Both the position numbers and the translations under genes were made by a program. A DNA stretch of 64,000 nt from Escherichia phage phiEc_1. The notes beneath the pieces are model-generated. The model was not told where the DNA came from. It searched no databases and saw only the letters and a program-made list of their open reading frames with translations. The stretch lies in the sequence record LC768462.1. One strand, 5' to 3'. This document shows, in pieces, positions 27,137-63,143 of the stretch (positions within the stretch are counted from its first letter, which is position 1; each line of letters starts with the position of its first letter).

Positions 27137-27670
27137 ATGAGTTTACTAGGAAGTATTGAACTGCATGATGTAATTGACAATGGCTATCTGGATGCGGAGC
27201 ATAAGTATGTTAACGCTGCTAGTGTGGATATCCGTATTGGTGATACTATCCTTGTTGAAGAACAGGCTGATGGCATCGTTGATATTGATGCGAAAGAGAA
27301 TCTTCAGTGGAAGGAAGTAAAGATTCCTGAAGAGGGTTTGGTTATCACTCCGGGTCAGTTCTTCTTGGCTCACTCTATGGAGGAGTTTAATCTTCCAGAT
27401 AACATCTCAAGTCTGTTTGTTCTGCGTTCGTCTATGGCTCGTTGTGGTTTGAACCACCTTCACGCCGGTTGGGCAGATGCAGGATTTAATAGTAGTAAGC
27501 TGACATTTGAATTCCATAACGTAACCAAGCACCACAGCTTACGAGTTCGTGCTGGTATGCGTGTTGGTCAGATGGTTATGTTTGAGCACTCTCATGCAGG
27601 GGAACATTCCTACGCAGTGAAGGGTCGTTATAATAACTCTGAAGGTGTGGTTGCATCTAAAGGTGTGTAA
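27137..27670 (+). CDS. dcd: dCTP deaminase
   Basis: VDIRIGD..., LRSSMARCGL, AGWADAGFN, GMRVGQMVMFEH align with E. coli Dcd motifs. Confidence 0.8.
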   Translation: MSLLGSIELHDVIDNGYLDAEHKYVNAASVDIRIGDTILVEEQADGIVDIDAKENLQWKEVKIPEEGLVITPGQFFLAHSMEEFNLPDNISSLFVLRSSMARCGLNHLHAGWADAGFNSSKLTFEFHNVTKHHSLRVRAGMRVGQMVMFEHSHAGEHSYAVKGRYNNSEGVVASKGV

Positions 27671-27868
27671 ATGAAAAAGTGGATTGTTCGTGTACATGAT
27701 AACACGACTGGAGAGTTAGTAGCTGTAGATTTTGTTAAGACTCGAGAACACGCACGTAGGGTCAAAAATCAATACAAGTCTACTTTTAGACTTAACAAGG
27801 TTACAATTGGAAAAGCTATTGTGAATAGCGAAGGTGCTTTTTTTGCCAACAGTAAGGTTTATTATTAA
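27671..27868 (+). CDS. small protein, paralog family B
   Basis: ORF track; tandem with two similar ORFs ending in ...KV-x-YY. Confidence 0.5.
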   Translation: MKKWIVRVHDNTTGELVAVDFVKTREHARRVKNQYKSTFRLNKVTIGKAIVNSEGAFFANSKVYY

Positions 27869-28077
27869 TGAGACCGATCACCATGAGACAATTTTGGTTA
27901 GCAAAGATTAAGTGGGCATCAGGTGGCATGACTATGACTGCACTACCCACTCGCCAACAAGCTCGAGATTTTAAAAAGACTATGCTTACTGGTGACGTGG
28001 TTAATAGTATCAGTATCCATAAGGCCAAGGAGTATTCTTCTGGTCGTGTTTATATCAGCGGAAAGGTACATTACTAA
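27868..28077 (+). CDS. small protein, paralog family B
   Basis: ORF track; ATGA overlap. Confidence 0.5.
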   Translation: MRPITMRQFWLAKIKWASGGMTMTALPTRQQARDFKKTMLTGDVVNSISIHKAKEYSSGRVYISGKVHY

Positions 28078-28286
28078 TGAAAAAGATGTGGGCTATTCAT
28101 GTTGTTTGGGATCTTGAGCAACACATGAGAAAAGATAACATCAAATTGTTTGATACTCGCAAAGAGGCTCGTATTGCTAAGAAACAGTTGAAGACTCTGG
28201 GCACAATAGTAAAAAGCGCTGACATACATCGCTGGTATGAAGACCCTAACACTGGTTCTTTTATGTCTAAAGTAATTTACTACTGA
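28077..28286 (+). CDS. small protein, paralog family B
   Basis: ORF track; ATGA overlap. Confidence 0.5.
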   Translation: MKKMWAIHVVWDLEQHMRKDNIKLFDTRKEARIAKKQLKTLGTIVKSADIHRWYEDPNTGSFMSKVIYY

Positions 28287-28311
28287 TTGGTAGTAGATAT
28301 GGTAACTCTCA

Positions 28312-28320
28312 AATGTATAT
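28312..28320 (+). promoter_or_regulatory. candidate phage-sigma promoter element (AAATGTATA)
   Basis: One-mismatch copy of recurrent TAATGTATA, 39 bp upstream of ATG 28359. Confidence 0.35.
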
Positions 28321-28358
28321 AGAGTACAATAAGAATTTGTATTTTACAGGAGAGAGTT

Positions 28359-28688
28359 ATGTTAGATTTGAGTAAAGTGGCCCCGCCCACTGAAGAGATT
28401 ACAAAATCCAAGGTGATGCAACAGTTTTATCATCGTGATATGCTTGGTCGCTTTATCAAGAATCGTGATGTTGTTGCTTGGTCTATTGGTAATCAGGGAT
28501 ATCTGTTGAAGGTTCTTCAGGTTACAGGTTCAACTGCTAAGCGAGTTAAGGTGTATGACCCTGAAATGGGGCGTTCTAAGTCAGTAGACCCACAGAACTG
28601 CATCGTAATTACCCAGCAGGTAATGGATAATATTGCACGTAACGTTGCTAACTCAGTTGAACTTGATGGAGAAAACCCAAATGCATAA
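28359..28688 (+). CDS. hypothetical protein
   Basis: ORF track. Confidence 0.55.
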   Translation: MLDLSKVAPPTEEITKSKVMQQFYHRDMLGRFIKNRDVVAWSIGNQGYLLKVLQVTGSTAKRVKVYDPEMGRSKSVDPQNCIVITQQVMDNIARNVANSVELDGENPNA

Positions 28689-29244
28689 GAATGTCTTTGA
28701 TTTACCTGAGATTGGTCGTGACAGCTATAGCATGTTAGACCGGTCTGATCTTTCAATCTCTCGCCTTGAAACAATGCAAGGCATGATTAGTGCAAACAGC
28801 CTAGAACACATCCTGAGCTGCTTACAAGCTAACATGGAACTCTTGCATATCAAAGCTAAAAACTACCACTGGAACGTCTCTGGTGCAGGATTTCAGGGTG
28901 TTCATGGTATGTTTGATGAGCTGGAAGATTACGCACGACAGGTAGGAGATCATATTGCTGAACGTATGCGTTACCACTGCGTTAAAGTGGACGCTACAGC
29001 AGCTAACTATCTTTCTCATGCTTGGTTCTCAGAGGGTAATGCTGACCTAGATATGGACGGTATGCTCTCTGATATGTGCATGACCTTGATGTGTATTATT
29101 GAGAAGATGGATGAGTTTGATGGTGATTTAGCCACCTACCCTGTTGATCAGAGTATGCTTCAAGAAATTAATGAAGGTCTTGGCAAGTATTGCTACTTCG
29201 TCAAGAGCAACATGTCCCATTCAAGTGGTGACGTGTCTTACTAA
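28681..29244 (+). CDS. dps: Dps-family ferritin-like protein
   Basis: KAKNYHWNVSGAGFQGVHGMFDE...D.IAER and C-terminal KYCYFVKSN align with E. coli Dps; ATG 28681 in track frame. Confidence 0.8.
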   Translation: MHKNVFDLPEIGRDSYSMLDRSDLSISRLETMQGMISANSLEHILSCLQANMELLHIKAKNYHWNVSGAGFQGVHGMFDELEDYARQVGDHIAERMRYHCVKVDATAANYLSHAWFSEGNADLDMDGMLSDMCMTLMCIIEKMDEFDGDLATYPVDQSMLQEINEGLGKYCYFVKSNMSHSSGDVSY

Positions 29245-29304
29245 AACCTCCGCCCTGTCTCCTAACCCGAGGTGGGGCGAACTTATTTATAAGGATATAG
29301 ATAT

Positions 29305-29484
29305 ATGTTATCAGCAATCGTATGGGGTATTTGGGCTATCTTTATTGGTGGTGGTATTTATTGGGCTTCTGGTAAGCTTATTGAAGAAACCCCTGATAAG
29401 AAAGGTGAGATTCAAACAGCATCAACTATCATGGTTATCGTAGCTGTTGTTATCCCATTCCTGCTTCACCTCCTGACTGCATAA
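29305..29484 (+). CDS. small membrane protein (2 TM), paralog of 29494..29679
   Basis: AAGGA SD; hydrophobic-charged-hydrophobic pattern; preferred over track ORF 29144..29443. Confidence 0.45.
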   Translation: MLSAIVWGIWAIFIGGGIYWASGKLIEETPDKKGEIQTASTIMVIVAVVIPFLLHLLTA

Positions 29485-29493
29485 GGATTTGAT

Positions 29494-29679
29494 ATGATTT
29501 CACTGATTGTGTGGGCCGTGTGGTCGTTAATAGTTGGTACTGTTATATATAAAGCTCGAAATTTAGCAATTAAAGAAAACCCAGCAGAAGAGGATGTTAA
29601 AGCTATCAAGCTAGGTAGTGTTGTTCTGGTACATTTTGCTATAACACTACCTCTTGTTATTATTCTTTGTATGCTATAA
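29494..29679 (+). CDS. small membrane protein (2 TM)
   Basis: ORF track; similar to 29305..29484. Confidence 0.5.
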   Translation: MISLIVWAVWSLIVGTVIYKARNLAIKENPAEEDVKAIKLGSVVLVHFAITLPLVIILCML

Positions 29680-45140: not shown

Positions 45141-45180
45141 AATAAAGCCCCTTCCTTTCGGTTGGGGCTTTTCTTTTATC
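45141..45180. terminator. bidirectional rho-independent terminator at the convergent module junction
   Basis: Stem AAGCCCC / GGGGCTT flanked by AAATAAA upstream and TTCTTTTAT downstream. Confidence 0.75.
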
Positions 45181-48100
45181 ACTCCTTAGGTCGAACTCTT
45201 ACACGGAGTCTCGATTGACGCTTACTGCGTTCAAGCTTCTCTGACAATGAGCCACGTTTAATCTTAGGCTTCCCTTCGTCATTAAACTTCTCCAAGAACT
45301 GCAAGTACTCAGTACGATTCGTTGTCTTGTAAGAAGGAATCTTAATATCAGGGTTCTCTTCAATTACACGTCTCATCTTCGCTACATCATCCCTACCAAG
45401 CAACTTACTCTTAGCCTGTTCAGCTGTAGAACCAAAGATCTTCTCCAGTGCTCTGGATTTGTTACCACCTGCGGAAGAAGCACCAAGTTTAGCAATGGCA
45501 GAGTAATCATCAGCACTAAACCAAGCTACTGGATTATCACCATACTTCTTCTTGTTTTCAGCAGCAGTCTGCAATGCACGTACAAAGCGACGGTTGTTAC
45601 CAGCCTTATCTGCACCATGAACCCTGTCTAAAACTTCAGCCACACTAGCCAACTCATCCAAGCTCTTCCCACTCAAGAAAGCTTTCTCTACTTTATCAGC
45701 AAAGACCTCTTCCTGTTGTTTAATGCTTTCCAAGATATCAGAATTTGCTTGAGATCTTTCATCGTCAGGCAGAGCAGAACGAATCTTCTCCATCTCCAAT
45801 TCTTCCTCTTGCAGTTTCTTAATATCAGAGTCAACCTTCTGAGCTTCCTCAATAGCCTTCCTAGTATCCGCATCCAAGTTATCAAGCTTACCTTCAGTAT
45901 CTCCAGTAACCTTAACAATCTCTTTCTCGATAGGGGTCATTGATTCGTACTTCTTAGCAAACTTCTCAACATCAGCTTCGATACGAGAACGAGCATTCTG
46001 ATGTTCAGTAGGAGTCATAGGCTTCTCAAGAAGTGCATAACGGTTATCCATATAGGAACCAGCAAATGCTTCAGCATCCTCTCTAGATATGCCCTTATCT
46101 TCCATAGTACGCATCAGGCGGCGATGAATGTCATCACGTTGACGTTGTACTGCCATAAGGTCATTCTCACGCTCTTGGGCCGCTTTAAGCTCTTCACTGC
46201 GCTTAACTCTCTTGTCCACATCAAACTTACGGTTCATTTCTTCCGCTTGCTCATACATCTTGTTCCACTTGGCCTGACGAGCGTCTTCCTCTGCATCAGT
46301 TAAACGACGCTGACGATCAAGGTAATCTGACTCGGCGTTGTGGATACGTTCAATGTAACTACGGAACTTCTCTGGAGGAACTGGAGAGTTCTTGTCATGG
46401 TGAGCAGCCAACTGTTTCAATGTACGAGATTCCTGAGCCTCACGAACAGGTTTAGGTAAACCTTCCATCATCTTCTCAATCTCACTCTTCTGAGCTGCAA
46501 TAGCCTCTAGAGTTTTACGTTCATTCTCAACAGCAGCCTTAGCATCTGAACGAGCCTGAGCCTTTTTCCTGAGGGTAGCAAGACGTTCTTCACGAGCCTG
46601 TAAATGCTTAGCAGCAGCTTCGTACTGAGAGTTCTTGTTAGCTTTGTTGAAGGCATTCACTTCTCTGTTATAGGTGTTAATAAACCCATCCCAAATATCC
46701 TTCATCTGACCAACTTCCAAAGCCTCTTTCCTACCAGCCTTCTCTGAAGATTTAAACTTCCCATCTACAAAGTCATTCATCAGCTTACGCATAGCATCTT
46801 TCTGAGCAGGACGTAAAGGTTCTGAATCAATCAAAGCATCAATCTCAGACTGAAGCTCTTTCTTCTGGTCAACCAGTTTAGGAGCATCTTTCTTATCGAA
46901 AGCTTTGTTCTCTTCTAGAGCTTGTTGATACAGTCTATCAAACTCATCCTCACGCTGCTTCTGATACAACCTTTCAGCACGACGTTTCAGACTATCCAAG
47001 TTAGTTACGTTCCCACCTAAACCTTTCTCTTCAGCACGTAATGCCTTAGTAGCAATGTCTTCTGGCAGACCACGTTCCTTAACCCATTCAGCAAAATTAG
47101 TTCGTACAGTGTTGTTCTTAGCAGTAGCAATACCTTGCTGAGAAGCCAGCTGGTTACGAGCCATTTCTTCATGACGTTCAGTGTTGATAGCATTGTCTTC
47201 CTGACGAATACGACGCATCAATTCCTTAGGATCACCTTTATAAGCCAAGAAGTTTTCAGCAGTAGCTTTAGCCTTAGCAGCCTTAGAGTACAGAGAACGA
47301 GCAAAACGTTCTGCACGATCTTTAGTAGACTGACGAGCAGCACTAGACATAGCAGCTAAACGTTCTACACCACTTGCCGGTTTAACGTCCTGTACAGCTT
47401 CCTTAGGAGCTTTAGGAGCACGGGCAGGTAATGGCTCAGCTTTGACTGTTGGTTCCTCTACAGTGGGTTCTGGAGCCTGTGCGGCCTCTTCTTGAGCACG
47501 TTGCTGTTCCATTGCACGACGCTCCTCTAAAGGGTTACGAGCAGGGAGAGGTTCAGCCTGTGGAGCTTGTTCGACTGGAGCTTCTTGAGCAGCAGCTGCC
47601 TCTTCTTCAGCGCGACGCTGTTCAGCCTGACGGATAGCACGTCTTTGCGCAACTAAATCACGAGCTGTAAGAGGAGTTTCTTGAGGAGTAGAAGAAGGAA
47701 GATTTTCTTCCATCACAGTACTAGAAGAAGGCTCCCGAACCGGTTCGGTTTCCGCGTCATTTTGCGTCTTAAATTTAACGTCATCAACAACTGGTTCTTC
47801 TTCCATCTTAGCACGAGCTTCATCAGCAGTCGACTTAGCACGAGCAACTTCCAAATCACCGCGAGCTAGAGAGCGGATAGCTTCACTGTTAGATTCTTGT
47901 TGCTTAACACGTTGAGAGCGAGCACGCTGAGAAGAGAAGCGATTCAGAGCATACTTAGCAGCACCGAGAGTGTTCATTACCAGACTAGGTGAAGAAGCCT
48001 CACGGAATCCATCATCAGTCAGGGAAGTCCAACCACGATCTTGGTTGCTCATGAATTTAGCTGTATTGTTCAGAGTGTAAGCATCTTGGATAGGATTAAA

Positions 48101-49600
48101 ACCTTCAGGCATACCTTTCAGTTTCTTCAACCCACCGATAGCTTTCTTCATCTCTGGAGAAACATTATCAGCCATCTTCTGTAGTTCAGCAGCTTTCTCT
48201 ACAAAGTTATTAAAGTCTTCACCATCACGAGCTTTGAATCGATTTGCTTCATTGTAGAAAGTCTTGTAAGCATCAATGAAATCACGGTCGGCTTGTGTAC
48301 GGTTCTTAATATCAATCGGACTACCAGTAAAATCACCAGAAGCTCGGAGAGAAGTTAATTCACGGTCTAGGTTATCTAGAACATCTGTAAGAGCTTTCGT
48401 ATTGTCTTTGGTGTAATCAGCCATTGCATCCTTCATAGCAACAGCCTGCTTCTGGTTGTGCTCGTTGTCAGCGAATGCTTTACCACGAGTCTTAGCAGGA
48501 GAAGCTAAAGGGTTGAGGCCCGGAATGTTGGAATGTTCTTTCTGAACGGAAGCAGCTTTCTCAGCACGAGCTTGGTCAGTATTAAGAATACGCTGAGCAG
48601 CAGGGGAGTCTACAGCAACAGCATCTGTAATACGGAATCCATTCTCATCCAGAAGGTTCAGAGCAGAAGCAGCGTTAGCAGTTTCAGCTTTAGAGTAGGC
48701 TTCTTTCAGTTCATCAATATTCTTAGCACTGCGAATTAGTTCGTCATCAGCAGCAATATCAGTCTTCGCATACTCTGGAGTATTCTTAAAGACAGTAGAG
48801 TCTGGACGGCTAATCAAACCATGAACCCCACCAACTGCACCACCAAATGCAGCACCCATAGCACCTTCTTCGATAGCACCCTCTAATACATTAGCAAAGG
48901 TTGTACCATCTCCATGCTTGTTCTGAGCTTCAGCAGCACCTACAAGAGCGCCACCTTTAGCACCAGCCACTGCGTTACTAGCAACGTTCTGACCGATACG
49001 TCCAAGTGTGGACTCAGCTGTACCAACAGCACCCGGAAGGATTCTCTGAGCCGCATAGTTAGCACCACCAACTAAGGCTGCATCTAGAATAGATTTATCT
49101 TCCCCCTCTTCAGGGGTTTGGTCTGCATATGCACGACCTGTCTCACGACCTGCGATGATAGCAGCAGCAGCCAATGGGTTAGCAACTGTCAAACCGATAT
49201 CACCAGCAACGCCAGCATACTGACCGACAGTTTTACCAATCCCATCCTCAATCTTATCCATACGTTCTTTAAGAAGGTTCTGAGAGTTCTCTTGGATACG
49301 CTTACCATAACTAGTTTGTGCTCCAGCTAGATTCTCACCAATCTCAACTAAACCACCAATACCTTTAGCAGCACTAGCTGCAATATTTGCACCACCAGAT
49401 TGAAGAGCATTTGACACACCTTGAGCAAACTCACCTATAGCACCACGTTCTTCTTGTTGTGGTTGTGCTACTGGCTGTTCCTCAGGAATAGAGCCACCTG
49501 CTGCCTTATATTGTTCTCTCATTTGAGCTTGTTGCTCCGGAGAGGCATTCAGATACGCAGGAGCTTTGGAAGCTTCTTCCCACGGTTTAATGTTAGCCAT
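45179..49600 (-). CDS. large internal virion/ejection protein (about 1473 aa, Ala/Glu-rich, coiled-coil)
   Basis: ATG at 49600 with AAGGAG SD (track's upstream Met at 49645 lies in the promoter-like motif). Confidence 0.6.
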   Translation of the reverse strand: MANIKPWEEASKAPAYLNASPEQQAQMREQYKAAGGSIPEEQPVAQPQQEERGAIGEFAQGVSNALQSGGANIAASAAKGIGGLVEIGENLAGAQTSYGKRIQENSQNLLKERMDKIEDGIGKTVGQYAGVAGDIGLTVANPLAAAAIIAGRETGRAYADQTPEEGEDKSILDAALVGGANYAAQRILPGAVGTAESTLGRIGQNVASNAVAGAKGGALVGAAEAQNKHGDGTTFANVLEGAIEEGAMGAAFGGAVGGVHGLISRPDSTVFKNTPEYAKTDIAADDELIRSAKNIDELKEAYSKAETANAASALNLLDENGFRITDAVAVDSPAAQRILNTDQARAEKAASVQKEHSNIPGLNPLASPAKTRGKAFADNEHNQKQAVAMKDAMADYTKDNTKALTDVLDNLDRELTSLRASGDFTGSPIDIKNRTQADRDFIDAYKTFYNEANRFKARDGEDFNNFVEKAAELQKMADNVSPEMKKAIGGLKKLKGMPEGFNPIQDAYTLNNTAKFMSNQDRGWTSLTDDGFREASSPSLVMNTLGAAKYALNRFSSQRARSQRVKQQESNSEAIRSLARGDLEVARAKSTADEARAKMEEEPVVDDVKFKTQNDAETEPVREPSSSTVMEENLPSSTPQETPLTARDLVAQRRAIRQAEQRRAEEEAAAAQEAPVEQAPQAEPLPARNPLEERRAMEQQRAQEEAAQAPEPTVEEPTVKAEPLPARAPKAPKEAVQDVKPASGVERLAAMSSAARQSTKDRAERFARSLYSKAAKAKATAENFLAYKGDPKELMRRIRQEDNAINTERHEEMARNQLASQQGIATAKNNTVRTNFAEWVKERGLPEDIATKALRAEEKGLGGNVTNLDSLKRRAERLYQKQREDEFDRLYQQALEENKAFDKKDAPKLVDQKKELQSEIDALIDSEPLRPAQKDAMRKLMNDFVDGKFKSSEKAGRKEALEVGQMKDIWDGFINTYNREVNAFNKANKNSQYEAAAKHLQAREERLATLRKKAQARSDAKAAVENERKTLEAIAAQKSEIEKMMEGLPKPVREAQESRTLKQLAAHHDKNSPVPPEKFRSYIERIHNAESDYLDRQRRLTDAEEDARQAKWNKMYEQAEEMNRKFDVDKRVKRSEELKAAQERENDLMAVQRQRDDIHRRLMRTMEDKGISREDAEAFAGSYMDNRYALLEKPMTPTEHQNARSRIEADVEKFAKKYESMTPIEKEIVKVTGDTEGKLDNLDADTRKAIEEAQKVDSDIKKLQEEELEMEKIRSALPDDERSQANSDILESIKQQEEVFADKVEKAFLSGKSLDELASVAEVLDRVHGADKAGNNRRFVRALQTAAENKKKYGDNPVAWFSADDYSAIAKLGASSAGGNKSRALEKIFGSTAEQAKSKLLGRDDVAKMRRVIEENPDIKIPSYKTTNRTEYLQFLEKFNDEGKPKIKRGSLSEKLERSKRQSRLRVRVRPKE

Positions 49601-49638
49601 AACGTCTCCTTTTATAAATAAAAATGTCCTACCCCCTA

Positions 49639-49647
49639 TATACATTA
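49639..49647 (-). promoter_or_regulatory. candidate phage-sigma promoter element (TAATGTATA on - strand)
   Basis: Reverse complement of TATACATTA, 39 bp upstream of the 49600 start. Confidence 0.45.
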
Positions 49648-49667
49648 TAGAAGGCAGGACTTAGGTC

Positions 49668-51323
49668 TTATTGAGTAAACCAGCTAGTGTCTTCGACAGC
49701 TGATAAAGCACCATTAAGCTTAGGATTGGTTGCTGCACCACCAACTGCTTCTTCTGCTTGTTCAGAGAAAACACCTAGAGGGTCATAGAAACCACCAGAA
49801 GGGATTGCACGGTTAACCAATGCAGTAGCTCTCTTCTTATCCATACCAGAACCGATGTAAGCTTCAATCGTAGCTCTCTTAGCATCAGCAACACCTTTCA
49901 TTGCAGAGGTGTGACCAACGTTAGCTTGCTTACGAGCATAAGCAAGAGCAGAATCAGTAGGACGCCATCCAGATTTCAGTGCAAACTTGTTGCCAACACG
50001 AATGAAGATTGATGGGTCTTCTGCAAAGTGCCCCAAGTCTTCTTCGGTAAGAGAACGAGTAGCACCGATTTCAGCCCTTGCGGAGTTCATGATAGCCTGC
50101 ATGTAAGCAGAACGAGCTGTCTGATAGTCTTTATCCTTAACAGCCTTATCAGCCAAATCCAAGTCTTTGTTAGACTGGTTAAACAGGCCACCTTTCTCTG
50201 CCCACTGCTTAGCAACCGTACCTTCAGCTGTATTCTGAGCAAGACGAACTTCTTTCGGGTTAAAGTTAAAACTCTGAGCAGCTTGTTCAGCACGTTCAGC
50301 CTTAACCTTATCACGATAACCAATCAACTCTTTCTGACGTTCAAAGTTCATGTTAGCCCTTTCTTCATCAGCACGACGAGTTTCATCAGCACGCTCACGC
50401 ATAGTTTGCTCTTGAATCTGTTGACGTCTATCCCATTCAGCATTTTGTCGTTCTTCACGAGCAGCATACAACGCTTCTTTCTGAGCAGGGTCTACAGCTC
50501 TCATCTTCAGTAGAGATGGGTCTCCGTTAGCAATAGCAGCTGCAATCGAGTCTTGAGAGAAGCCTTGTTCAATCAGAGCATCACGGTTAGCTTCCAGTTG
50601 CTTCTTAGTCTCATCTTGATTAGCCATTCCCTGACCAATCTGGAAAGCTTCAATAGGAGACTTACCTGACATAATGGAAAGACCTACACCCATCAAACCT
50701 GTGTAGAAACTAGAGTTCTGATAGAATGGTTCTTTCTGTAGCTTGTTCCAAGCTTCCGAAGGGTCTTTAGCTTTCGCAACTTGCAAGATATCATTGTTAA
50801 CACGTTCCTGATCTTTAGCACGAGTAGCAGCAGCCATTCCATCACCAGTATCTTGTCCTTGAGCAAGAGTATTAATCACACCTTGTGCCTGTTCCACCTG
50901 AGAAGGAGTAAACTCCATAGGACCAGCTTCTAACGGTTTAGTAGGAGGTGTTACCGGAAGAGGGTCACTAGGCATAAGCCCAGCATCCTGTAAACCTTGA
51001 TCAGTGGATAGGTTAGGGTTAGACGCTACAGGGGCCGGTGCTCCAATATCAATACCTTGAAGACTTGTAGGAGTTCCTTGATTCTGCTGTTCCATAAGAC
51101 GTTGCTGGAATCCCGGATTAACCATAGCAGTCTGATCTTCTTCTGCCTGAGAGACAAGACCCGCAAGAGATGAAGGTACAGCAGGACGTTGATACATAGA
51201 AATATCTGCTGTCTGAGTTGGTCTAGCCATATAAGGAGAGGCCGAAGCCGCTCCCGGATTAACACCATAGAAAGTATTTCTCGGGTCACGACTTCTGACC
51301 TGAGCGTAAGTTGTCTGTTGCAT
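49668..51323 (-). CDS. virion internal protein
   Basis: ORF track; AGGAG SD; Gln/Ala-rich with charged coiled-coil centre. Confidence 0.55.
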   Translation of the reverse strand: MQQTTYAQVRSRDPRNTFYGVNPGAASASPYMARPTQTADISMYQRPAVPSSLAGLVSQAEEDQTAMVNPGFQQRLMEQQNQGTPTSLQGIDIGAPAPVASNPNLSTDQGLQDAGLMPSDPLPVTPPTKPLEAGPMEFTPSQVEQAQGVINTLAQGQDTGDGMAAATRAKDQERVNNDILQVAKAKDPSEAWNKLQKEPFYQNSSFYTGLMGVGLSIMSGKSPIEAFQIGQGMANQDETKKQLEANRDALIEQGFSQDSIAAAIANGDPSLLKMRAVDPAQKEALYAAREERQNAEWDRRQQIQEQTMRERADETRRADEERANMNFERQKELIGYRDKVKAERAEQAAQSFNFNPKEVRLAQNTAEGTVAKQWAEKGGLFNQSNKDLDLADKAVKDKDYQTARSAYMQAIMNSARAEIGATRSLTEEDLGHFAEDPSIFIRVGNKFALKSGWRPTDSALAYARKQANVGHTSAMKGVADAKRATIEAYIGSGMDKKRATALVNRAIPSGGFYDPLGVFSEQAEEAVGGAATNPKLNGALSAVEDTSWFTQ

Positions 51324-51336
51324 ATTTATCTCCTAA

Positions 51337-52305
51337 TTAAGTACTAGCCAACCCACCGATTACACCCCCAGCTAATGCACCCCAAGGTCCAAAGGAAGAG
51401 CCAGCTGCTGCACCACTCATAGCTCCACCAAGGAAACCACCTTTGCCACCAGATGTTTTAGTAGTTGTAGTTTGTCCGAGAGCACCGTTAAGTACACCTG
51501 CTGCACCGAGTTGGTTATTGATATCTTGCCATCCCCAATTAGCTGCGTTCTGAGCATTCTGGTAGGCATTATCATATTCATTCTGTTGTTGCTGTTGTTG
51601 CTGCAACCCTGCATTCCATTGATTCATTATTTGCTGTTGAGACAAATTAGCACCCTGCTGACCTAGGTTAGAAAGGTTAGAACCAATATTAGAAAGACCA
51701 GAGAGAGCAGCTGCCTGATTCTGTCTATTACCAGAGAGGATGCTTTCAGCTTGGCTAATAGCCGAGTTATAGGCACTATTGGTAATATCTGTTGCTTGGC
51801 CTTGCATCTGATTCAGAGCATCACCTTGGGCAAAAGACTTAGCCATACGAGCACCTGAACCTTGTTGACCAGCAAACTGTTGAGCTAACTGAGGAAGAGC
51901 ATTACGTGCCAAGTTCTGTTGAACCTGTTCATTATTAGCTGTAATGGCTGCTTGCACAGCGTCATCATCATACAGTTGACCAGCGAGAGCACCAATCTGC
52001 TCTCCAGTAATCCCACCTTGTCCAGAGAGGCTCTGATAACCTTTATAGGCATTATCTAGATAACCCAAGCCTTGACCTGCTGCATCCATATACTGCTGTG
52101 AGAGAGTACCTAGAGCGCCAGATTGTGCTAGGTTGTTAAGTGCCTCTGTCTGATTGTTATTAAACCCTACATTGTCACGATAAACATAATCCCCTGAACT
52201 AGTATTACCAATCTGTTGGTTAAGCTGGTCAATATACTGTTGAATGTATTCAGGGCGAATCATTTGGGAAGTAGTTTTACTACCCCCTCCTCCGAAAAGT
52301 CCCAT
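51337..52305 (-). CDS. Gln/Asn/Gly-rich low-complexity virion protein
   Basis: ORF track; AGGAG SD; poly-Q run. Confidence 0.55.
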   Translation of the reverse strand: MGLFGGGGSKTTSQMIRPEYIQQYIDQLNQQIGNTSSGDYVYRDNVGFNNNQTEALNNLAQSGALGTLSQQYMDAAGQGLGYLDNAYKGYQSLSGQGGITGEQIGALAGQLYDDDAVQAAITANNEQVQQNLARNALPQLAQQFAGQQGSGARMAKSFAQGDALNQMQGQATDITNSAYNSAISQAESILSGNRQNQAAALSGLSNIGSNLSNLGQQGANLSQQQIMNQWNAGLQQQQQQQNEYDNAYQNAQNAANWGWQDINNQLGAAGVLNGALGQTTTTKTSGGKGGFLGGAMSGAAAGSSFGPWGALAGGVIGGLAST

Positions 52306-52317
52306 ATCAAATCTCCT

Positions 52318-53370
52318 TTAGTTTGCTCCAAATGCCCCTAAGACACCACCTAAGATATTACTACCTGCTGTGGATAACCAGTTAGACTGACCTTTCTGTT
52401 GAGAAAGATTAGAACCACCAATCATAGGACCAGCCATTCCAGATTGCCCACCTGAGTTGTTATAGGAACTCCAAGCATTCTGAGTCTGTTGATTAGGAGA
52501 GAAAGCACCCATACGACCTGCAATACCTAATCCAGTGATACCAGCACCTAGGAGCTGTTGTCCAGTATTAACCCCCGGAGCAGCATTCTTAATCGTGTAC
52601 CCAGCCATTGGGCTTACACTATTTAATACATTAAGTTGGTTGTTAAGCTGATTCCACCCATACTGTTGAGAGCCAATAGCATTCTGCCAATTAATATCAG
52701 CTTGAGCTTGGGCTTGTTGCTGTTGTAGATTACCAGCCATGAGTTGATTCTGGATAGCTTGTTGAGTTGCCTGAACACCTTGAGCACCAAGGTTGAGATT
52801 CTGTCCAGCCAATCCTGACTGAGCACCAAGTAATCCCCTCTGGAAGTTTTGGTCTTGTTGAAGAGCACTGATTCCCATATTCTTGCCACTGATAGTACGA
52901 GCTAAGTTTGTATTAGCACTGTTCAGAGCAGCACCTTGAGCAGCAGCTCTACGGAGAGAGCCTGAATCAGAACCATTTCCGAGGGATACATTGGAAGCTG
53001 CCTTACTAGTCGCTTGAGCAAGAGCTGAGTTATTCAATCCTTTACTAAAGTTATTAACACCATCAGCAGTTAGACCACCACCATTGACAATATTCTGATA
53101 CTGCTGTGCAAGAGAGTTTAATTGGTCCAACCCTTGCTGTGTACGAGGCGTGTACATATCAGCCAATTGCTTCTGAGTAGTAGAAGCTGCTAAGTTGTTC
53201 AGAGCACCCTGTTGGTTGCCATTAAACCCAGCCAGTTGTTGGGAGATGAATCCCGGATCGTTGTTCTGCATATTCTGAGCATTAGCAACAATCTGCTTCA
53301 GCAGGGCATCAACCTGAGAGGAAGGGGCCACTGTGGTTTTGCTAGAAGCTGATTTTCCAAATAAAGACAT
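52318..53370 (-). CDS. Gln/Asn/Gly-rich low-complexity virion protein
   Basis: ORF track; AAGGAGG SD. Confidence 0.55.
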   Translation of the reverse strand: MSLFGKSASSKTTVAPSSQVDALLKQIVANAQNMQNNDPGFISQQLAGFNGNQQGALNNLAASTTQKQLADMYTPRTQQGLDQLNSLAQQYQNIVNGGGLTADGVNNFSKGLNNSALAQATSKAASNVSLGNGSDSGSLRRAAAQGAALNSANTNLARTISGKNMGISALQQDQNFQRGLLGAQSGLAGQNLNLGAQGVQATQQAIQNQLMAGNLQQQQAQAQADINWQNAIGSQQYGWNQLNNQLNVLNSVSPMAGYTIKNAAPGVNTGQQLLGAGITGLGIAGRMGAFSPNQQTQNAWSSYNNSGGQSGMAGPMIGGSNLSQQKGQSNWLSTAGSNILGGVLGAFGAN

Positions 53371-53389
53371 AAGTCCTCCTTAAAGATTA

Positions 53390-54172
53390 TTACTTTACAC
53401 CAATGCTAGCCAGACGTCTGAGCACTGCTTGTGTTTGTGGACTGTACTGAGAACCTGCTGCATGTGGTGCACTTGCCCTCTGAACTGTTTGAGAAGTGGG
53501 AGGTTTACCAGCAAGCATAGCAGCTACCCCTAATACTGCATTACCAAAGTTCTGTTGAGGTTTCTGATTTTCGCCTTCCTGCACTTCATCAGAGTAAAAC
53601 TCTACTGGATTTCCACCTAAAGCACCTGTCTTAGAAGCAGCAATCTCTGCCTGAGTTGGAGCTTGTGCGGCCTTCTCTCTATCTAACAAGTCAGGACTAA
53701 ACTGATTGACTGGTTGAACAGCTTGCAAAGCTCCAACAGGGTTAGCAATCTGAGAAGCTGCATCACCATAGAAAGGAAGAAAGTGTTTATTGTTCATGGA
53801 GTCAAGAGCTTGTGGAGTAAACCCCTTTTTACCAGCGAACATTTGCTTAGCTCCACCGATACCTTCTGAATAACCAACCATTGCTTTCTTAACATCACCA
53901 TTAAAAGCTTTTAAGTTATCTCTTATGTAACGAGCGCCCATATCAATATTCTTTGCTGGGTCAAGTCTATCTTCTAGTTTGTAACCGTAATCTTTAGCCA
54001 ACCCTTTACTGATCTGCATTAAACCTACAGGACCAGTTCCAGAGGCCACTGTAGGACGACCACTGGACTCTCTTTGGATGACAGCATGAATCAAAGCAGC
54101 AGGAATCCCATACTTCTTTGAAGCTTGCTGTACCATTGGGTCTAGTTCTTCGATACCCATTCTGATTGCCAT
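53390..54172 (-). CDS. lytic transglycosylase (SLT domain)
   Basis: HAVIQRESSGRP...GPVGLMQI matches SLT catalytic region. Confidence 0.8.
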   Translation of the reverse strand: MAIRMGIEELDPMVQQASKKYGIPAALIHAVIQRESSGRPTVASGTGPVGLMQISKGLAKDYGYKLEDRLDPAKNIDMGARYIRDNLKAFNGDVKKAMVGYSEGIGGAKQMFAGKKGFTPQALDSMNNKHFLPFYGDAASQIANPVGALQAVQPVNQFSPDLLDREKAAQAPTQAEIAASKTGALGGNPVEFYSDEVQEGENQKPQQNFGNAVLGVAAMLAGKPPTSQTVQRASAPHAAGSQYSPQTQAVLRRLASIGVK

Positions 54173-54181
54173 AATATCTCC

Positions 54182-55216
54182 TTATTGTATACTCCTGAAT
54201 ATCTTTCTAGCATCTAATATTGGAATACTTAACCCGAGGGCACCACCCCCTCCTAAATCATATTGACTACTCCAAGAGTAAATCATCCTTCCGAAACCTG
54301 TACCGAAAGAAGAGCCATTCATCATGTGAGATCTTGTGTGTTGAAAATACCAACCACTAGCCTTGCCCCTTATTGCTCCTGCTCCGTAAGATAGTGGTAT
54401 CATTGGATAGGCCAGAGATGTGTTACCGCCACTCATAGGCATAAATCCCTCAACACTAAAAGGGGTTCTATATGTAGAAAATACACACTGAGACCCATTT
54501 GGAGAGAAGATATTTAAACCCCCATTGTGGGTTGGTACTCCAGAACCATCACAGAAGACGGCAATTCTAACACCACCAATGTATCCTGTTTGGTTTGTGT
54601 TACCATTATCATGAGATCTGTTCTGGTACACATAAACAACCCTATTGGATGGATTGTATAGCAGCCCTGCTCCACCGTTACTCCAATTCGCGTAGACAGT
54701 TGCTCGGCTCATATCAAAACCACCAATATCTGGTATTTGAAGAGAACCATTTATGTCACCCTCCCAAGCCCAAATACATTGACCAACAACCCCAGAATCG
54801 GATATTGAGAAATAGTCAGCAGAGTTGGAGAATGTGATTCCATAATTCCTGTTAGCTCTAGGCCATATTTGATACACATTAAAAGCCATATCAAATACCC
54901 AACCGTTTACATTATAGTCCATAGTAACTCTGAAGGTTGAGTTATTAATAACAGATATATCCGTTATCCAATACACATCAGACGTTACGTTAGGAGGTAT
55001 GTATCTCTCCCAAACAACAGACCCTGTTGGAACTACAACTATCTGACCACTACCATCCCAACCACTTATAGGCAAGTCACAGGTATTTCCACTAAAAGAG
55101 AAATTCCCACTGACTCTATTTCTGAGTTGAGGGAATGTGCTACCACTATCGATGTAAATATCAGCAGGTGCCGCTGGACCCGGACCAACCGGGCGTGTCC
55201 ATATTCCATATGCCAT
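54182..55216 (-). CDS. tail fibre / receptor-binding protein (beta-rich)
   Basis: ORF track; Gly/Ser/Asn-rich beta-like composition; adjacent to fibre-like gene. Confidence 0.45.
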   Translation of the reverse strand: MAYGIWTRPVGPGPAAPADIYIDSGSTFPQLRNRVSGNFSFSGNTCDLPISGWDGSGQIVVVPTGSVVWERYIPPNVTSDVYWITDISVINNSTFRVTMDYNVNGWVFDMAFNVYQIWPRANRNYGITFSNSADYFSISDSGVVGQCIWAWEGDINGSLQIPDIGGFDMSRATVYANWSNGGAGLLYNPSNRVVYVYQNRSHDNGNTNQTGYIGGVRIAVFCDGSGVPTHNGGLNIFSPNGSQCVFSTYRTPFSVEGFMPMSGGNTSLAYPMIPLSYGAGAIRGKASGWYFQHTRSHMMNGSSFGTGFGRMIYSWSSQYDLGGGGALGLSIPILDARKIFRSIQ

Positions 55217-55217
55217 G

Positions 55218-56186
55218 TTACCAACTCCCTATTCTTATGCGAAGAGTTCCACTCCCATCATAAAAATCTATTCTATTACCATTCATCCACAACTGAGAAC
55301 CACCTGTACCACCCATAACAAAATCACCACCAACAGTAAGTCTCCAGTTAGAACCCCACATAGAACCAGCAGTGATTTTATCCGCTGATAAGTTCTGAAT
55401 CTGAGCATTGGAGATAGATACGTTATCAATCTGTGCCCATTGGATCCTAGCGTTGGCAATCTGAGCAGTTGTGATGTTGACGTTCTTTATGTCAGCGAAT
55501 TCCATCCTAGCTCGCCCACCCTCAAATACGAAGGGGGTATTCCCAGAGCTGCCATCACCAACAATAAATTTGTTAGCTGTTACTTGGAATTGACTGTTTG
55601 TTCCGTTGTTAGTTAACTTGACCCCAGCATATCTTCCGTTGACTGTAGAGTTAACACCCCACGTAGCTTCATACTCAGAGAGTTTCATATACTGAGAAAG
55701 GCTTCCGTTGATATTTTGCAGTTCTGTCTGAACAAGAGCAATCTCTTGACCTTGATCGTTAACAATACCTTCTACTGTCTGAATTTTAGTTGTGTTACCT
55801 TCGATGCTGGTCTTAAAACCAGATACAGTGCTTTCTAGCTTCACAGGGGGTTGAACAGAATTATCCCAAATGTCCTCAGTGGACAGGTTCCCCATCTGGG
55901 TTTGGATATCTGCAATAGCTGTTTCTATCTCTGTAGTAATTCTATTCTCAAGCTCATCAAATTGTAGATTCATTGCATTAAGAGCTTTAATACGAACATC
56001 AATCTCTTCGTGAATTTCATCTATAGCTTGGAACATTTGGTTAGTAGCTGTGCTAACTTTTTGTAATTCATCATACACGGCTACGTTATATGTTTCTGTG
56101 TCCTGTACATTATTGAGAAACCCAACGTTGTACGGGAGTGTGGTGTTGTTGCGACCAGTATTCTTACGAAAACCACCTGCACCCAT
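55218..56186 (-). CDS. tail fibre protein
   Basis: ATG at 56186 with GGAGG SD (track start 56252 overlaps upstream gene); coiled-coil N-terminus, fibre-like C-terminal repeats. Confidence 0.5.
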   Translation of the reverse strand: MGAGGFRKNTGRNNTTLPYNVGFLNNVQDTETYNVAVYDELQKVSTATNQMFQAIDEIHEEIDVRIKALNAMNLQFDELENRITTEIETAIADIQTQMGNLSTEDIWDNSVQPPVKLESTVSGFKTSIEGNTTKIQTVEGIVNDQGQEIALVQTELQNINGSLSQYMKLSEYEATWGVNSTVNGRYAGVKLTNNGTNSQFQVTANKFIVGDGSSGNTPFVFEGGRARMEFADIKNVNITTAQIANARIQWAQIDNVSISNAQIQNLSADKITAGSMWGSNWRLTVGGDFVMGGTGGSQLWMNGNRIDFYDGSGTLRIRIGSW

Positions 56187-56229
56187 AAGTTCCTCCAAAA
56201 CAATAAAAGGGGCACGAAGCCCCTTGTTG

Positions 56230-59200: not shown

Positions 59201-59247
59201 GCGATAACGCCTACAGCACCTAGTGACTTTATTGGATACAGCGCCAT
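56230..59247 (-). CDS. large structural protein with bacterial Ig-like (Big_2-type) domains
   Basis: Three repeated ~80-aa segments with Big_2-like pattern. Confidence 0.55.
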   Translation of the reverse strand: MALYPIKSLGAVGVIADQAPTDLAPNAFTNAINARFVEQRVFKTGGNAPLSYVDEDKDLTPLSFVSMPFDYYSAGNSFLVVGTDKKLYKLTDESLTDISRKVATVTKKASASIKIYPVVSQIVPKESTISMNFNQTKNLEVSLLPADANNTDLIWEVSNSSYGSITVDPGDSKLATLTSFEKEGNLVVTISTANESVVAQIAVNIIDGDSGIFLSQDTVTIRKGGTTTLTAVTGKTPVTWSSNNASIVSVTPNANSLTAVITANGEGNVTITADNGTKTASCEVVSIPQIDSISLSQSDVTVSRGSQYILTATLSPANAPNQNITWTSSNPNIATVSGTSTQGTINALLAGFTEITATTEEGNRVAVCTVRVDLAGRTMRTSAMAFAAPVSEPVETQEEEVVTPPESEETVYFAEPTSGIDTSGMYEGNNFYDYSNVNDIEGFARASLLATPLSSVTLDVVSASLDVGEEIVITATASPEGDYSYQWSVDKTGYVSTTSVTGKSIKLVALRKGEINVTCTVSQMTQKDYDAFDDYPWYHAVISNCAVATTHYETPQVKEFESEYFVDLPGWGEQTVVDNDGNPSVKKFNWKCERVRSFNNRLFALNMREANASGVTTNYPLRLRWSNFANENKAPTLWDDFAYDRVVSSDLASNIVGQTQALENGYAGYIDLADSNGSLIDILPLKDYLFVYTEFETYIGSPTNNTYQPLMFKKLFNDSGILAPECVVEVEGSHFVVTQNDVILHNGATKKSIASNRVKNMLINEVCLVNPLATRVHLHQDKKEVWVLYVGPGEPKESFACTKAAVWNYEFDTWSFRTIPYAQCIGLVDPPVLERGPIWSDFQEITWDDPSIKELVWRKDATNFRQRVTIVGSFLKGFYQVDVGALDYFYDRLNDVVIEKPLEMRLERTGIDFDNVTNEWNQKHINRFRPQTTGSGTYIFEAGGSQFSNEYGHPHTSKTYTIGVDRHVSVRLNHPYLFYNVIDNDVNSNAAINGLTIEFAVGGRR

Positions 59248-59256
59248 AATTCCTCC

Positions 59257-60060: not shown

Positions 60061-60072
60061 AAGGCACCTCCA

Positions 60073-60564: not shown

Positions 60565-60593
60565 TTCTAACCTCCTTTTGTAGTCCCTTTAAA

Positions 60594-60812: not shown

Positions 60813-60904
60813 TTGAGTGTCTCCTATATATTAACCTCTTGGGATATATTAGTTTCATTACTTACTAAGGGTACTCACTACTAAAGCCCCCGAAGGGGCT
60901 TATA

Positions 60905-63103: not shown

Positions 63104-63143
63104 TTAAATCTCCTTAAAGCCCCCCGAAGGGAGCATTGTTAAA

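What the first reader, a model, noticed from the sequence alone, without database searches (positions are those of the whole stretch)
28681..29244. Phage-encoded Dps (DNA-binding ferritin-like protein)
The ORF aligns convincingly with bacterial Dps across the ferroxidase-site helix (NYHWNV.G..F..VH..FDE) and the C-terminus. Dps is a host stress protein that condenses DNA and sequesters iron. A phage copy could protect replicating phage DNA from oxidative damage or remodel the nucleoid.
Basis: partly seen in the sequence, partly recalled or inferred. Interest (0 to 1): 0.5.

Follow-up and report, generated by a model that had tools for sequence, protein, structure and literature searches.

The report
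Dps mini-ferritin gene of a Kuravirus phage
The ORF is a real, strongly conserved Dps-type iron-oxidising mini-ferritin carried by a phiEco32-like E. coli phage, but it was already described in these phages in 2014 and 2021, and its sequence gives no support for the "DNA-binding" label.

Summary
Window 28681-29244 (+) is a 187-aa ORF with a GGAG ribosome-binding site. It belongs to the Dps branch of the ferritin superfamily: Pfam PF00210 is above its cut-off, a profile of it and its relatives matches solved Dps structures at E 2e-38, and the AlphaFold model superposes on solved Dps chains at rmsd 1.3-1.7 A. All six ferroxidase-site residues of E. coli Dps are conserved. The window is a Kuravirus (phiEco32-like podophage) 99.6% identical to phage MN03. 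The gene is under strong purifying selection (dN/dS about 0.05). It is the second gene of a conserved two-gene unit: a 109-aa protein of unknown function, then Dps. This unit starts the middle (replication and nucleotide-metabolism) gene cluster, between dCTP deaminase and thioredoxin/ThyX. The most likely role is a dodecameric ferroxidase that removes Fe2+ and H2O2 while phage DNA is made; this role is inferred, not shown. DNA binding or nucleoid condensation is not supported, because the protein is acidic (pI 4.7) and has no basic tail. None of this is new: SU10 CDS67 (2014) and Privateer (2021) are published as Dps-domain proteins, and hundreds of viral contigs encode Dps relatives. The function is still untested. 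One open lead is that the protein was detected by mass spectrometry in virion preparations of two phages.

The parts
28311..28321 (+). AAATGTATATA, a one-mismatch match to the phiEco32/SU10 phage-sigma promoter motif tAATGTATAtA. It lies 38 nt upstream of the 109-aa ORF and is the likely first middle promoter.
   Evidence: locates the motif, but 3 matches in the window is not significant on its own. The SU10 paper places a middle promoter upstream of CDS68, the orthologue of the 109-aa ORF. Sequence read.
28359..28688 (+). 109-aa protein of unknown function (phrog_10984; SU10 CDS68 orthologue). It is the conserved upstream partner of Dps and its stop overlaps the Dps start by 8 nt.
   Evidence: phrog_10984 E 1.9e-64. 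It is homologous to the genes directly upstream of Dps in Proteus phage Privateer (37% identity, E 5e-16) and Aeromonas phage LAh_9 (31%, E 2e-18). The same 109-aa gene and 8-nt overlap occur in metagenomic relatives L007 and L009 and in EK010. There is no Pfam or PADLOC hit. The AF2 model is poor (pLDDT 47).
28681..29244 (+). Dps-family mini-ferritin gene: 187 aa, 21.2 kDa, pI 4.7.
28681..28812 (+). Clade-specific N-terminal extension (residues 1-44). It is acidic, predicted with low confidence, starts with the conserved motif MH(K/N)N(V/P)FDLP, and contains a conserved S-x-x-R-L-E-x-M helix at residues 25-37.
   Evidence: Alignments; AF2 pLDDT 43-57 for residues 1-40. Its pN is 0.28 against 0.066 for the core. 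In 78 other viral Dps relatives the median N-terminal tail is 7 aa.
28813..29211 (+). Dps core (residues 45-177): helices A 41-65, B 72-98, a short BC helix 107-112, C 125-145 and D 154-176.
   Evidence: AF2 model with core pLDDT 77-95. Foldseek against PDB puts Dps chains first (1jig, 2d5k, 1ji5, 2chp, 2z90) with target-normalised TM 0.80-0.92 and rmsd 1.3-2.5 A.
28867..28962 (+). Ferroxidase-site block: H63, W64, H75, D79, D90, E94.
   Evidence: These align one-to-one with E. coli K-12 Dps H51, W52, H63, D67, D78, E82, using the real dps gene fetched from NC_000913.3. They are invariant in 12 close phage homologues. H75, D90 and E94 are invariant in 78 viral relatives.
29251..29279 (+). Terminator-like GC-rich hairpin 7 nt after the Dps stop, with a weak T-rich tail. 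It may end or attenuate the two-gene unit.
   Evidence: Consensus scan. Folding gives -15.9 kcal/mol but z = -1.26 against shuffles, so this is suggestive only.

Best explanation
The ORF encodes a phage Dps, a small ferritin-like protein. It most likely assembles into a hollow 12-subunit shell, as every characterised Dps does. Ferroxidase centres at the dimer interfaces would be formed by H63, H75 and D79 of one subunit and D90 and E94 of the neighbour. These centres oxidise Fe2+, preferentially with H2O2, and deposit the Fe3+ inside the shell. The gene is transcribed with an upstream 109-aa partner as the first unit of the middle (replication and nucleotide-metabolism) genes, next to dCTP deaminase, thioredoxin, ThyX, PhoH and the DNA polymerase. 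The protein would therefore lower free iron and peroxide in the infected cell while phage DNA and dNTPs are made. This limits Fenton damage to replicating phage DNA and to redox-sensitive enzymes. Shown here: family membership, the fold, the intact and invariant ferroxidase ligands, purifying selection and conserved synteny. Shown in the literature: the protein is expressed. Inferred: dodecamer formation, iron oxidation and the protective role. Direct DNA binding is not expected, because the protein and both of its tails are acidic.
For: Family and fold:
- Pfam PF00210 is above its gathering score.
- The profile matches PDB Dps chains over their full length at E 2e-38.
- The AF2 model has the four-helix bundle plus the short BC-loop helix typical of Dps, and its best PDB matches are all Dps (TMt 0.8-0.92, rmsd 1.3-1.7 A).

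Catalytic site:
- There is a one-to-one match to E. coli Dps H51/W52/H63/D67/D78/E82.
- These residues are invariant across the phage clade.

Selection:
- dN/dS is about 0.05 against Suseptimavirus EK010, with pN 0.066 in the core.
- The gene is present in 97 of about 98 related Escherichia phage records.

Context:
- The order dCTP deaminase, 109-aa gene, Dps, thioredoxin, ThyX holds in the window and in relatives of 53-56% identity, which also carry NrdD nearby.
- In Privateer, SE131 and LAh_9 the Dps gene also lies among dCTP deaminase, thioredoxin, ThyX, PhoH and anaerobic ribonucleotide reductase genes.

Expression:
- SU10 CDS67 was detected with 35.8% coverage and 6 peptides.
- The middle promoter is published upstream of CDS68.

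From my own knowledge, not tested here: ThyX has an NAD(P)H-oxidase side reaction that makes H2O2, and Dps enzymes prefer H2O2 as oxidant. This would make the ThyX/Dps/thioredoxin neighbourhood functionally coherent.
Against: - There is no biochemical or genetic test of any phage Dps in the literature I could search.
- The NCBIfam Dps equivalog models score far below their cut-offs (35 bits against 114), so this is a divergent branch and not an orthologue of host Dps (19% identity).
- Oligomeric state could not be predicted with the tools available.
- The Trp conserved in 75 of 78 viral relatives (E. coli W160) is Tyr here.
- The 44-aa N-terminal extension and the conserved 109-aa partner have no explanation under this model.
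- Detection in CsCl-purified Privateer virions hints at a location other than the cytoplasm.
Confidence: 0.6

Rival explanations
1. Virion-associated Dps. The protein is packaged in, or bound to, the prolate capsid of C3-morphotype podophages. There it could protect the packaged genome from iron or peroxide damage outside the cell, or be delivered with the DNA. The clade-specific N-terminal extension could be a targeting signal.
For: The Privateer Dps was detected by MS in particles purified by a CsCl step gradient plus equilibrium centrifugation, alongside ten structural proteins. The SU10 Dps was detected with 6 peptides in a concentrated phage preparation. The Dps gene is conserved in all C3 podophages compared. 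In BFVD, some uncultured-phage proteins with a Dps fold are annotated 'prohead protease' or are long fusions. The conserved N-terminal MHNNxFDLP motif has no known role.
Against: The gene is in the middle (replication) cluster on the strand opposite the late structural genes. The SU10 preparation also contained DNA polymerase, thioredoxin, PhoH, a sigma factor and other non-structural proteins, so it was not clean. The SU10 cryo-EM study's list of structural and ejection proteins (gp20-24 and others) does not include it. Privateer's Dps lacks the N-terminal extension, at 154 aa. As an inference, an iron-loaded Dps particle is dense and could co-band with phage in CsCl. The one long fusion I examined (L040, 743 aa) carries DUF5824 and not a protease domain.
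Confidence: 0.12
2. Iron store or donor. The shell buffers iron and releases it to iron-dependent enzymes of dNTP synthesis, such as the Fe-S activase of anaerobic ribonucleotide reductase in relatives or the host class I reductase here. In this model its main role is not antioxidant.
For: The Dps gene lies next to NrdD, NrdG or stand-alone ATP-cone genes in relatives. A thioredoxin gene is its neighbour in all lineages. The ferroxidase site is intact.
Against: This window has no NrdD or ATP-cone homologue (tblastn) and I found no other iron enzyme in the cluster. Dps proteins are generally poor iron donors compared with maxi-ferritins (my own knowledge). There is no Bfd-like reductase partner: the 109-aa partner has a single Cys.
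Confidence: 0.12
3. Nucleoid protein, as in E. coli Dps. It binds and compacts phage or host DNA, or interferes with host Dps-DNA complexes.
For: Database labels read 'DNA binding protein' (PHROG 3636; GenBank records). The family includes DNA-binding members.
Against: The labels are transferred by homology and not tested. The protein has net charge -16 and pI 4.7. Its N-terminal tail has net charge -3 with one Lys, and its C-terminal tail has net charge -1. E. coli Dps relies on K5, K8 and K10 in its N-terminal tail (sequence; mechanism from my own knowledge). Identity to host Dps is only 19%, which makes mixed oligomers unlikely.
Confidence: 0.08
4. Functionless passenger gene recently acquired from a host.
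For: None beyond the general frequency of morons in phage genomes.
Against: dN/dS is about 0.05 with synonymous sites near saturation. The gene is conserved with its synteny across Gordonclarkvirinae, Grimontviridae and Lahexavirus. Only 7 representative clusters score at or below E 1e-30, followed by a gap to 1e-19, so this is an old and distinct phage clade. Identity to E. coli Dps is 19%.
Confidence: 0.02

Closest known systems
SU10 CDS67 / phiEco32-group 'DNA-binding protein with DPS domain' (Mirzaei et al. 2014, PMC4281155); BFVD A0A0B4N267
   Same: It is the same gene at the same genome position, 96% identical, 21.2 kDa, among the middle genes and preceded by CDS68, the orthologue of the 109-aa ORF. 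It was reported as conserved in all five C3 podophages then sequenced and was detected by MS.
   Different: Nothing material. The closest record to the window (MN03) labels it 'hypothetical protein', and other records label it 'integrase', 'ferric iron binding protein' or 'DNA binding protein'.
[quoted passage not shown]
   Same: They share the same clade of phage Dps (41-45% identity over the core). Privateer has the same upstream partner gene. Both sit in the same nucleotide-metabolism neighbourhood.
   Different: They are shorter (154 and 146 aa) and lack the 44-aa N-terminal extension. They are followed by a stand-alone ATP-cone protein that this window does not have.
Bacterial Dps without DNA-binding tails: Bacillus anthracis Dlp-1/Dlp-2 (1ji5, 1jig), S. 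aureus Dps (2d5k), B. subtilis MrgA (2chp), M. smegmatis Dps2 (2z90), P. aeruginosa PA0962 (8ff9)
   Same: They share the fold (TMt 0.8-0.92, rmsd 1.3-2.5 A), the ferroxidase ligands and overall acidity. They are also the best sequence matches in PDB.
   Different: Identity is only 22-27%. The phage protein has a long acidic N-terminal extension, Tyr instead of the conserved C-terminal Trp, and 5 Cys plus 15 Met including a conserved DMCMTLMC stretch in helix C.
E. coli Dps (host protein; 1dps, 1f30)
   Same: It has the same family and the same six ferroxidase-site residues.
   Different: Identity is 19%. The NCBIfam equivalog model is far from satisfied (35 bits against 114). The phage protein has no lysine-rich N-terminal tail.
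Dps-like genes reported in other phages (Lactobacillus plantarum myophages, PMC6669764; gut 'Gratiaviridae'/'Flandersviridae', PMC8008677)
   Same: These are phage-borne Dps genes placed near DNA-metabolism genes. The authors propose the same antioxidant or iron-sequestering role.
   Different: They come from different phage lineages and hosts and are only distantly related in sequence (13-24% identity in structural alignment).

Membership tests
Dps (mini-ferritin) family, ferritin-like superfamily | Significant sequence match to the Ferritin/Dps profile | tested here: met
   Pfam PF00210 scores 29.3 bits against a cut-off of 24.5, but covers only residues 55-109. A profile of 30 homologues matches full-length PDB Dps chains at E 2e-38. 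The profile also retrieves 2054 proteins, all of those listed carrying PF00210 and many named Dps.
Dps (mini-ferritin) family, ferritin-like superfamily | Four-helix bundle with a short helix in the long B-C loop | tested here: met
   The AF2 model has helices 41-65, 72-98, 107-112 (short BC), 125-145 and 154-176, with core pLDDT 77-95. The top 50 PDB matches by Foldseek are all Dps-type chains.
Dps (mini-ferritin) family, ferritin-like superfamily | Inter-subunit ferroxidase ligands (His, His, Asp/Glu on helices A/B; Asp, Glu on helix B) plus the adjacent Trp | tested here: met
   H63, W64, H75, D79, D90 and E94 align with E. coli H51, W52, H63, D67, D78 and E82. They are invariant in the clade.
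Dps (mini-ferritin) family, ferritin-like superfamily | Assembly into a hollow dodecamer with 23 symmetry | not testable with these tools
   Only monomer prediction is available, so assembly is inferred from the family.
Dps (mini-ferritin) family, ferritin-like superfamily | Acidic residues lining the ferritin-like three-fold iron-entry pore | tested here: inconclusive
   D146, D148 and D156 lie at the helix C-D junction, and D156 is nearly invariant in the clade. The equivalent column is variable among viral relatives, and no oligomer model was available to place these residues in a pore.
Dps (mini-ferritin) family, ferritin-like superfamily | Fe2+ oxidation by H2O2/O2 and iron-core formation | not testable with these tools
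   This requires biochemistry.
E. coli-type DNA-binding Dps (NCBIfam NF006975 equivalog) | Score above the equivalog cut-off | tested here: not met
   35.1 bits against a cut-off of 114. The DpsA models are also far below their cut-offs.
E. coli-type DNA-binding Dps (NCBIfam NF006975 equivalog) | Flexible basic (Lys/Arg-rich) N- or C-terminal tail that contacts DNA | tested here: not met
   The N-terminal tail (1-44) has 1 K, 3 R, 4 D and 3 E, net -3. The C-terminal tail (178-187) has net -1. The whole protein has pI 4.70 and net charge -16.
Virion (structural or packaged) proteins of Kuravirus | Encoded in the late structural module and listed among virion or ejection proteins of purified particles | tested here: not met
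   It is a middle gene on the + strand, while the structural genes lie at 45179-63989 on the - strand. It is absent from the SU10 structural protein table. MS detection in the SU10 and Privateer preparations keeps this question open.

The most novel reading that the evidence does not exclude
The Dps of prolate (C3) podophages, perhaps with its conserved 109-aa partner, is a true virion component. In that reading a mini-ferritin is carried inside or on the capsid and guards the packaged genome against iron or peroxide damage, or enters the cell with it. This would be functionally analogous to ferritin-like cargo in HK97-fold encapsulins. The clade-specific N-terminal extension with its conserved MHNNxFDLP motif would act as the targeting signal.
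Probability: 0.1. Interest if true: 0.6.

Novelty: already known. Interest (0 to 1): 0.22.

Why it matters
The result corrects inconsistent database labels for this gene: 'hypothetical', 'integrase' and 'DNA binding protein' should read Dps-family ferroxidase, with DNA binding unproven. It also shows that the gene is a core, strongly constrained part of the replication and nucleotide-metabolism module of a whole group of prolate podophages, always paired with an uncharacterised 109-aa gene. If the proposed role is right, these lytic phages actively manage iron and peroxide chemistry in the infected cell. This is plausible in the gut or wastewater settings where these phages are found, but it has never been tested for any phage Dps. 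BASEL-collection Gordonclarkvirinae that plate on E. coli K-12 now exist, so a clean deletion test is feasible.

Tried and rejected
1. Structure of the 109-aa partner. AF2 with 14 homologues gave pLDDT 47 and pTM 0.31. This is too poor for a fold search, so none was run. The secondary structure suggests a helix, a small beta-barrel and a second helix, and nothing more can be said.

2. Pfam and PADLOC on the partner and the small neighbouring ORFs gave no hits. PHROGs gave only unknown-function families.

3. NrdD and ATP-cone homologues. These sit next to Dps in relatives, but tblastn found none in the window at E <= 0.01. My self-check query for the 109-aa protein was empty because of a scripting slip. 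That has no bearing on the NrdD and ATP-cone result.

4. Terminator after Dps. The hairpin is present but not better than shuffled sequence (z = -1.26), so I list it only as terminator-like.

5. Promoter motif. A single one-mismatch hit is not statistically meaningful by itself. I accept it only because it coincides with the published promoter position.

6. Dps fused to prohead protease. This is seen only as BFVD annotations. Among 80 IMG/VR loci, one long fusion (743 aa) was found, and it carries DUF5824 and not a protease. Long representatives P0133 and P0138 carry DUF6321 or a double ferritin domain. This gives no direct support for capsid targeting of the Kuravirus protein.

7. Literature search for an experimental study of any phage Dps found none.

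8. R2-like (ribonucleotide reductase small subunit) identity was rejected. The ligands are the inter-subunit Dps set, not the intra-subunit ExxH pairs, and every sequence and structure match is to Dps.

Full report
**1. The observation**

Window 28681-29244 (+) is an ORF with an ATG start and a TAA stop, encoding 187 aa (21.2 kDa). A GGAG lies 9-10 nt upstream. The ATG overlaps the stop of the preceding ORF (28359-28688) by 8 nt.

**2. Where the window comes from**

The 4-kb neighbourhood is 97-99.6% identical to Escherichia phages of the genus Kuravirus (Gordonclarkvirinae; phiEco32-like prolate 'C3' podophages). The best match is phage MN03. This ORF is annotated inconsistently in those records: 'hypothetical protein', 'DNA binding protein', 'integrase' and 'ferric iron binding protein'.

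**3. What the protein is**

Sequence evidence:
- Pfam Ferritin PF00210 is above its gathering score (29.3 against 24.5 bits), although only residues 55-109 align.
- PHROG 3636 matches end to end at E 7e-55.
- phmmer against PDB returns dozens of Dps structures. The best are M. smegmatis Dps2 at E 3.6e-9, then B. subtilis MrgA and B. anthracis Dlp-2.
- An exhaustive profile search over 1.84 billion representatives finds 3015 relatives at E <= 1e-3. Only 7 score at or below 1e-30, and a gap down to 1e-19 follows. The protein therefore belongs to a small, distinct clade embedded in the large Dps family.
- A profile of the query and 29 homologues from that search matches PDB Dps chains over their whole length at E 2e-38. 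It also retrieves about 2000 PF00210 proteins, many of them named Dps.

Structural evidence:
- An AlphaFold2 model (mean pLDDT 78; core blocks 77-95) shows four long helices plus the short helix in the B-C loop that distinguishes Dps from other ferritin-like bundles.
- The top 50 Foldseek matches in PDB are all Dps-type chains, with target-normalised TM 0.80-0.92 and rmsd 1.3-2.5 A.

**4. The catalytic site**

I fetched the real host gene, E. coli K-12 dps, and aligned it with the phage protein. The correspondence is:

| E. coli Dps | Phage protein |
|---|---|
| H51 | H63 |
| W52 | W64 |
| H63 | H75 |
| D67 | D79 |
| D78 | D90 |
| E82 | E94 |

All six residues are invariant in 12 phage homologues that go down to 47% identity. 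H75, D90 and E94 are invariant in 78 further viral relatives; none of these three was part of the search pattern used to find those relatives. The site is intact.

**5. What does not fit a classical DNA-binding Dps**

- Identity to host Dps is 19%.
- The NCBIfam Dps equivalog scores 35 bits against a cut-off of 114.
- The protein is strongly acidic, with pI 4.70 and net charge -16. The 44-residue N-terminal extension has net charge -3 and a single lysine, and the C-terminal tail has net charge -1.
- DNA binding by E. coli Dps depends on the lysines of its N-terminal tail (established knowledge; the tail sequence is visible). The 'DNA-binding' label on the phage protein is a transferred name and not a supported property.

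Clade-specific features:
- The N-terminal extension is long, while the median in other viral Dps is 7 aa. It evolves faster than the core (pN 0.28 against 0.066). It nevertheless keeps an MH(K/N)N(V/P)FDLP start and an S-x-x-R-L-E-x-M helix.
- Tyr replaces the Trp that is conserved in 75 of 78 relatives.
- The protein contains 5 Cys and 15 Met, including a conserved DMCMTLMC stretch in helix C.

**6. Selection and distribution**

Against the orthologue in Suseptimavirus EK010 (83% amino-acid identity), pS is 0.73 and pN is 0.115, giving dN/dS of about 0.05. tblastn finds full-length copies in 97 phage records. That is essentially every Gordonclarkvirinae genome that matches the region. It also finds core-only homologues in the following phages, with identity to the query:
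- Salmonella phages: 40-45%
- Proteus and Cronobacter phages: 39-41%
- Aeromonas Lahexavirus: 31%
- Streptomyces and Synechococcus phages: 27-28%

Phage-borne Dps genes are therefore common.

**7. Context**

In the window the gene order is:
- DnaB-like helicase
- 3'-5' exonuclease
- nucleotidyltransferase
- dCTP deaminase
- three small tandem paralogues
- the 109-aa ORF
- Dps
- two small membrane-protein paralogues
- a 58-aa ORF
- thioredoxin
- ThyX
- PhoH
- family-A DNA polymerase

The 109-aa ORF (phrog_10984) is homologous to the gene directly upstream of Dps in Privateer (E 5e-16) and in LAh_9 (E 2e-18). The same 109-aa gene with the same 8-nt overlap is present in EK010 and in metagenomic relatives whose Dps is only 53-56% identical. 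In those relatives Dps is followed directly by thioredoxin and ThyX, with an anaerobic ribonucleotide reductase (NrdD) about 2 kb downstream.

In Privateer, SE131 and LAh_9, a stand-alone ATP-cone protein follows Dps. The window itself has no NrdD or ATP-cone homologue.

The SU10 paper places the start of the middle genes, with a promoter, upstream of CDS68, the orthologue of the 109-aa ORF. In the window an AAATGTATATA match to the phage-sigma motif lies at 28311-28321, 38 nt before that ORF. A GC-rich hairpin follows the Dps stop at 29251-29279, but it is not statistically better than shuffled sequence.

The picture is a two-gene unit, 109-aa protein then Dps, at the head of the middle (replication) genes.

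**8. Mechanism**

The best-supported reading is a dodecameric Dps ferroxidase that consumes Fe2+ and H2O2 and stores Fe3+. It would be made while phage DNA and dNTPs are synthesised, and would limit Fenton damage.
- Shown here: family, fold, ligands, constraint and synteny.
- Shown in the literature: expression of the protein (SU10, 6 peptides, 35.8% coverage).
- Inferred: oligomer formation, catalysis and the physiological benefit.
- From my own knowledge and not tested: ThyX leaks H2O2 through an NAD(P)H-oxidase side reaction, and Dps prefers H2O2 as oxidant. This would make the neighbourhood chemically coherent.

I put about 0.85 on 'functional Dps-type ferroxidase' and about 0.6 on the full statement including the protective role.

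**9. Rival explanations**

*(a) Virion association.* Privateer's Dps was found by MS in particles purified twice over CsCl, and SU10's Dps was found in a concentrated preparation. Against this:
- The SU10 sample also contained polymerase, thioredoxin, PhoH and a sigma factor.
- The SU10 cryo-EM study lists no such structural or ejection protein.
- The gene is not in the late module.
- Privateer's protein lacks the extension.
- A dense iron-loaded particle could co-band with phage in CsCl (inference).

*(b) Iron donor for Fe-dependent dNTP enzymes.* This is suggested by the NrdD and NrdG neighbours in relatives, but no such gene is present in the window.

*(c) Nucleoid binding.* This is contradicted by the charge data.

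*(d) Passenger gene.* This is contradicted by the dN/dS value and the deep synteny.

**10. Comparison with what is known, and novelty**

[quoted passage not shown] It was reported as conserved in all five C3 phages then known and was detected by MS. [quoted passage not shown] Dps-like genes have also been discussed for Lactobacillus phages and gut phages, with the same antioxidant rationale. The finding is therefore correct but already known.

This re-analysis adds four points:
- an explicit residue-level check against host Dps;
- evidence that DNA binding is not supported;
- the conserved 109-aa partner and two-gene organisation;
- the clade-specific N-terminal extension.

No experimental study of any phage Dps turned up in the searchable literature.

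**11. Verdict**

Novelty is 'already known'. Interest is low to moderate (0.22). The one lead that could raise it is true packaging in the virion, to which I give about 0.1.

Noticed in passing
window 28359-28688 (+): A 109-aa protein of unknown function (phrog_10984) always sits directly upstream of the Dps gene, with an 8-nt overlap. This holds in Kuravirus, Suseptimavirus, Privateer, Lahexavirus and metagenomic relatives. It was also detected by MS in SU10 (CDS68, 12.2 kDa). It may be a functional partner of Dps.
   Followed up: partly
window 27671-28286 (+): Three tandem paralogous small ORFs (65, 69 and 69 aa; all phrog_4939, E about 1e-28) lie between dCTP deaminase and the 109-aa gene. 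Each ends in ...KV(Y/H/I)Y. EK010 has two ORFs of similar size in the same interval, whose families were not checked.
   Followed up: partly
window 29305-29679 (+): Two tandem paralogous small hydrophobic proteins (59 and 61 aa; both phrog_9296) lie immediately downstream of Dps, and each appears to have two membrane-spanning segments. Their function is unknown.
   Followed up: no
window 18799-27670 (+): A cluster upstream of Dps contains a 563-aa protein annotated aminotransferase or glutamine amidotransferase, a 398-aa protein called an ATP-grasp enzyme in SU10, a gamma-glutamyl cyclotransferase-like protein (PF06094), a nucleotidyltransferase and a dCTP deaminase. The BASEL paper (PMC11990801) notes that Gordonclarkvirinae are unusually resistant to restriction-modification systems and speculates about an unknown DNA modification. 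This cluster is a candidate for that.
   Followed up: no
BFVD hits; L040:664-2895; P0133, P0138: Some uncultured-phage proteins carry a Dps fold inside much longer proteins of 290-777 aa. Several are annotated 'prohead protease' in BFVD. Those I scanned carry DUF5824 (L040), DUF6321 (P0133) or two ferritin domains (P0138). This raises the possibility of capsid- or particle-associated Dps fusions.
   Followed up: partly
L002:3398-3694, L003:3411-3707, L004:3429-3701: In Privateer, SE131 and LAh_9 a stand-alone ATP-cone protein of about 90-100 aa (PF03477) directly follows the Dps gene. This is a second conserved neighbour, and it is missing from the Kuravirus window.
   Followed up: partly
window 28681-29244, residues 128-138 and 171: The Kuravirus-clade Dps is rich in sulfur residues, with 15 Met and 5 Cys. 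It has a conserved DMCMTLMC stretch in helix C and a near-invariant Cys171, which are absent from typical Dps. I could not tell whether these form a metal site or are simply core packing.
   Followed up: no
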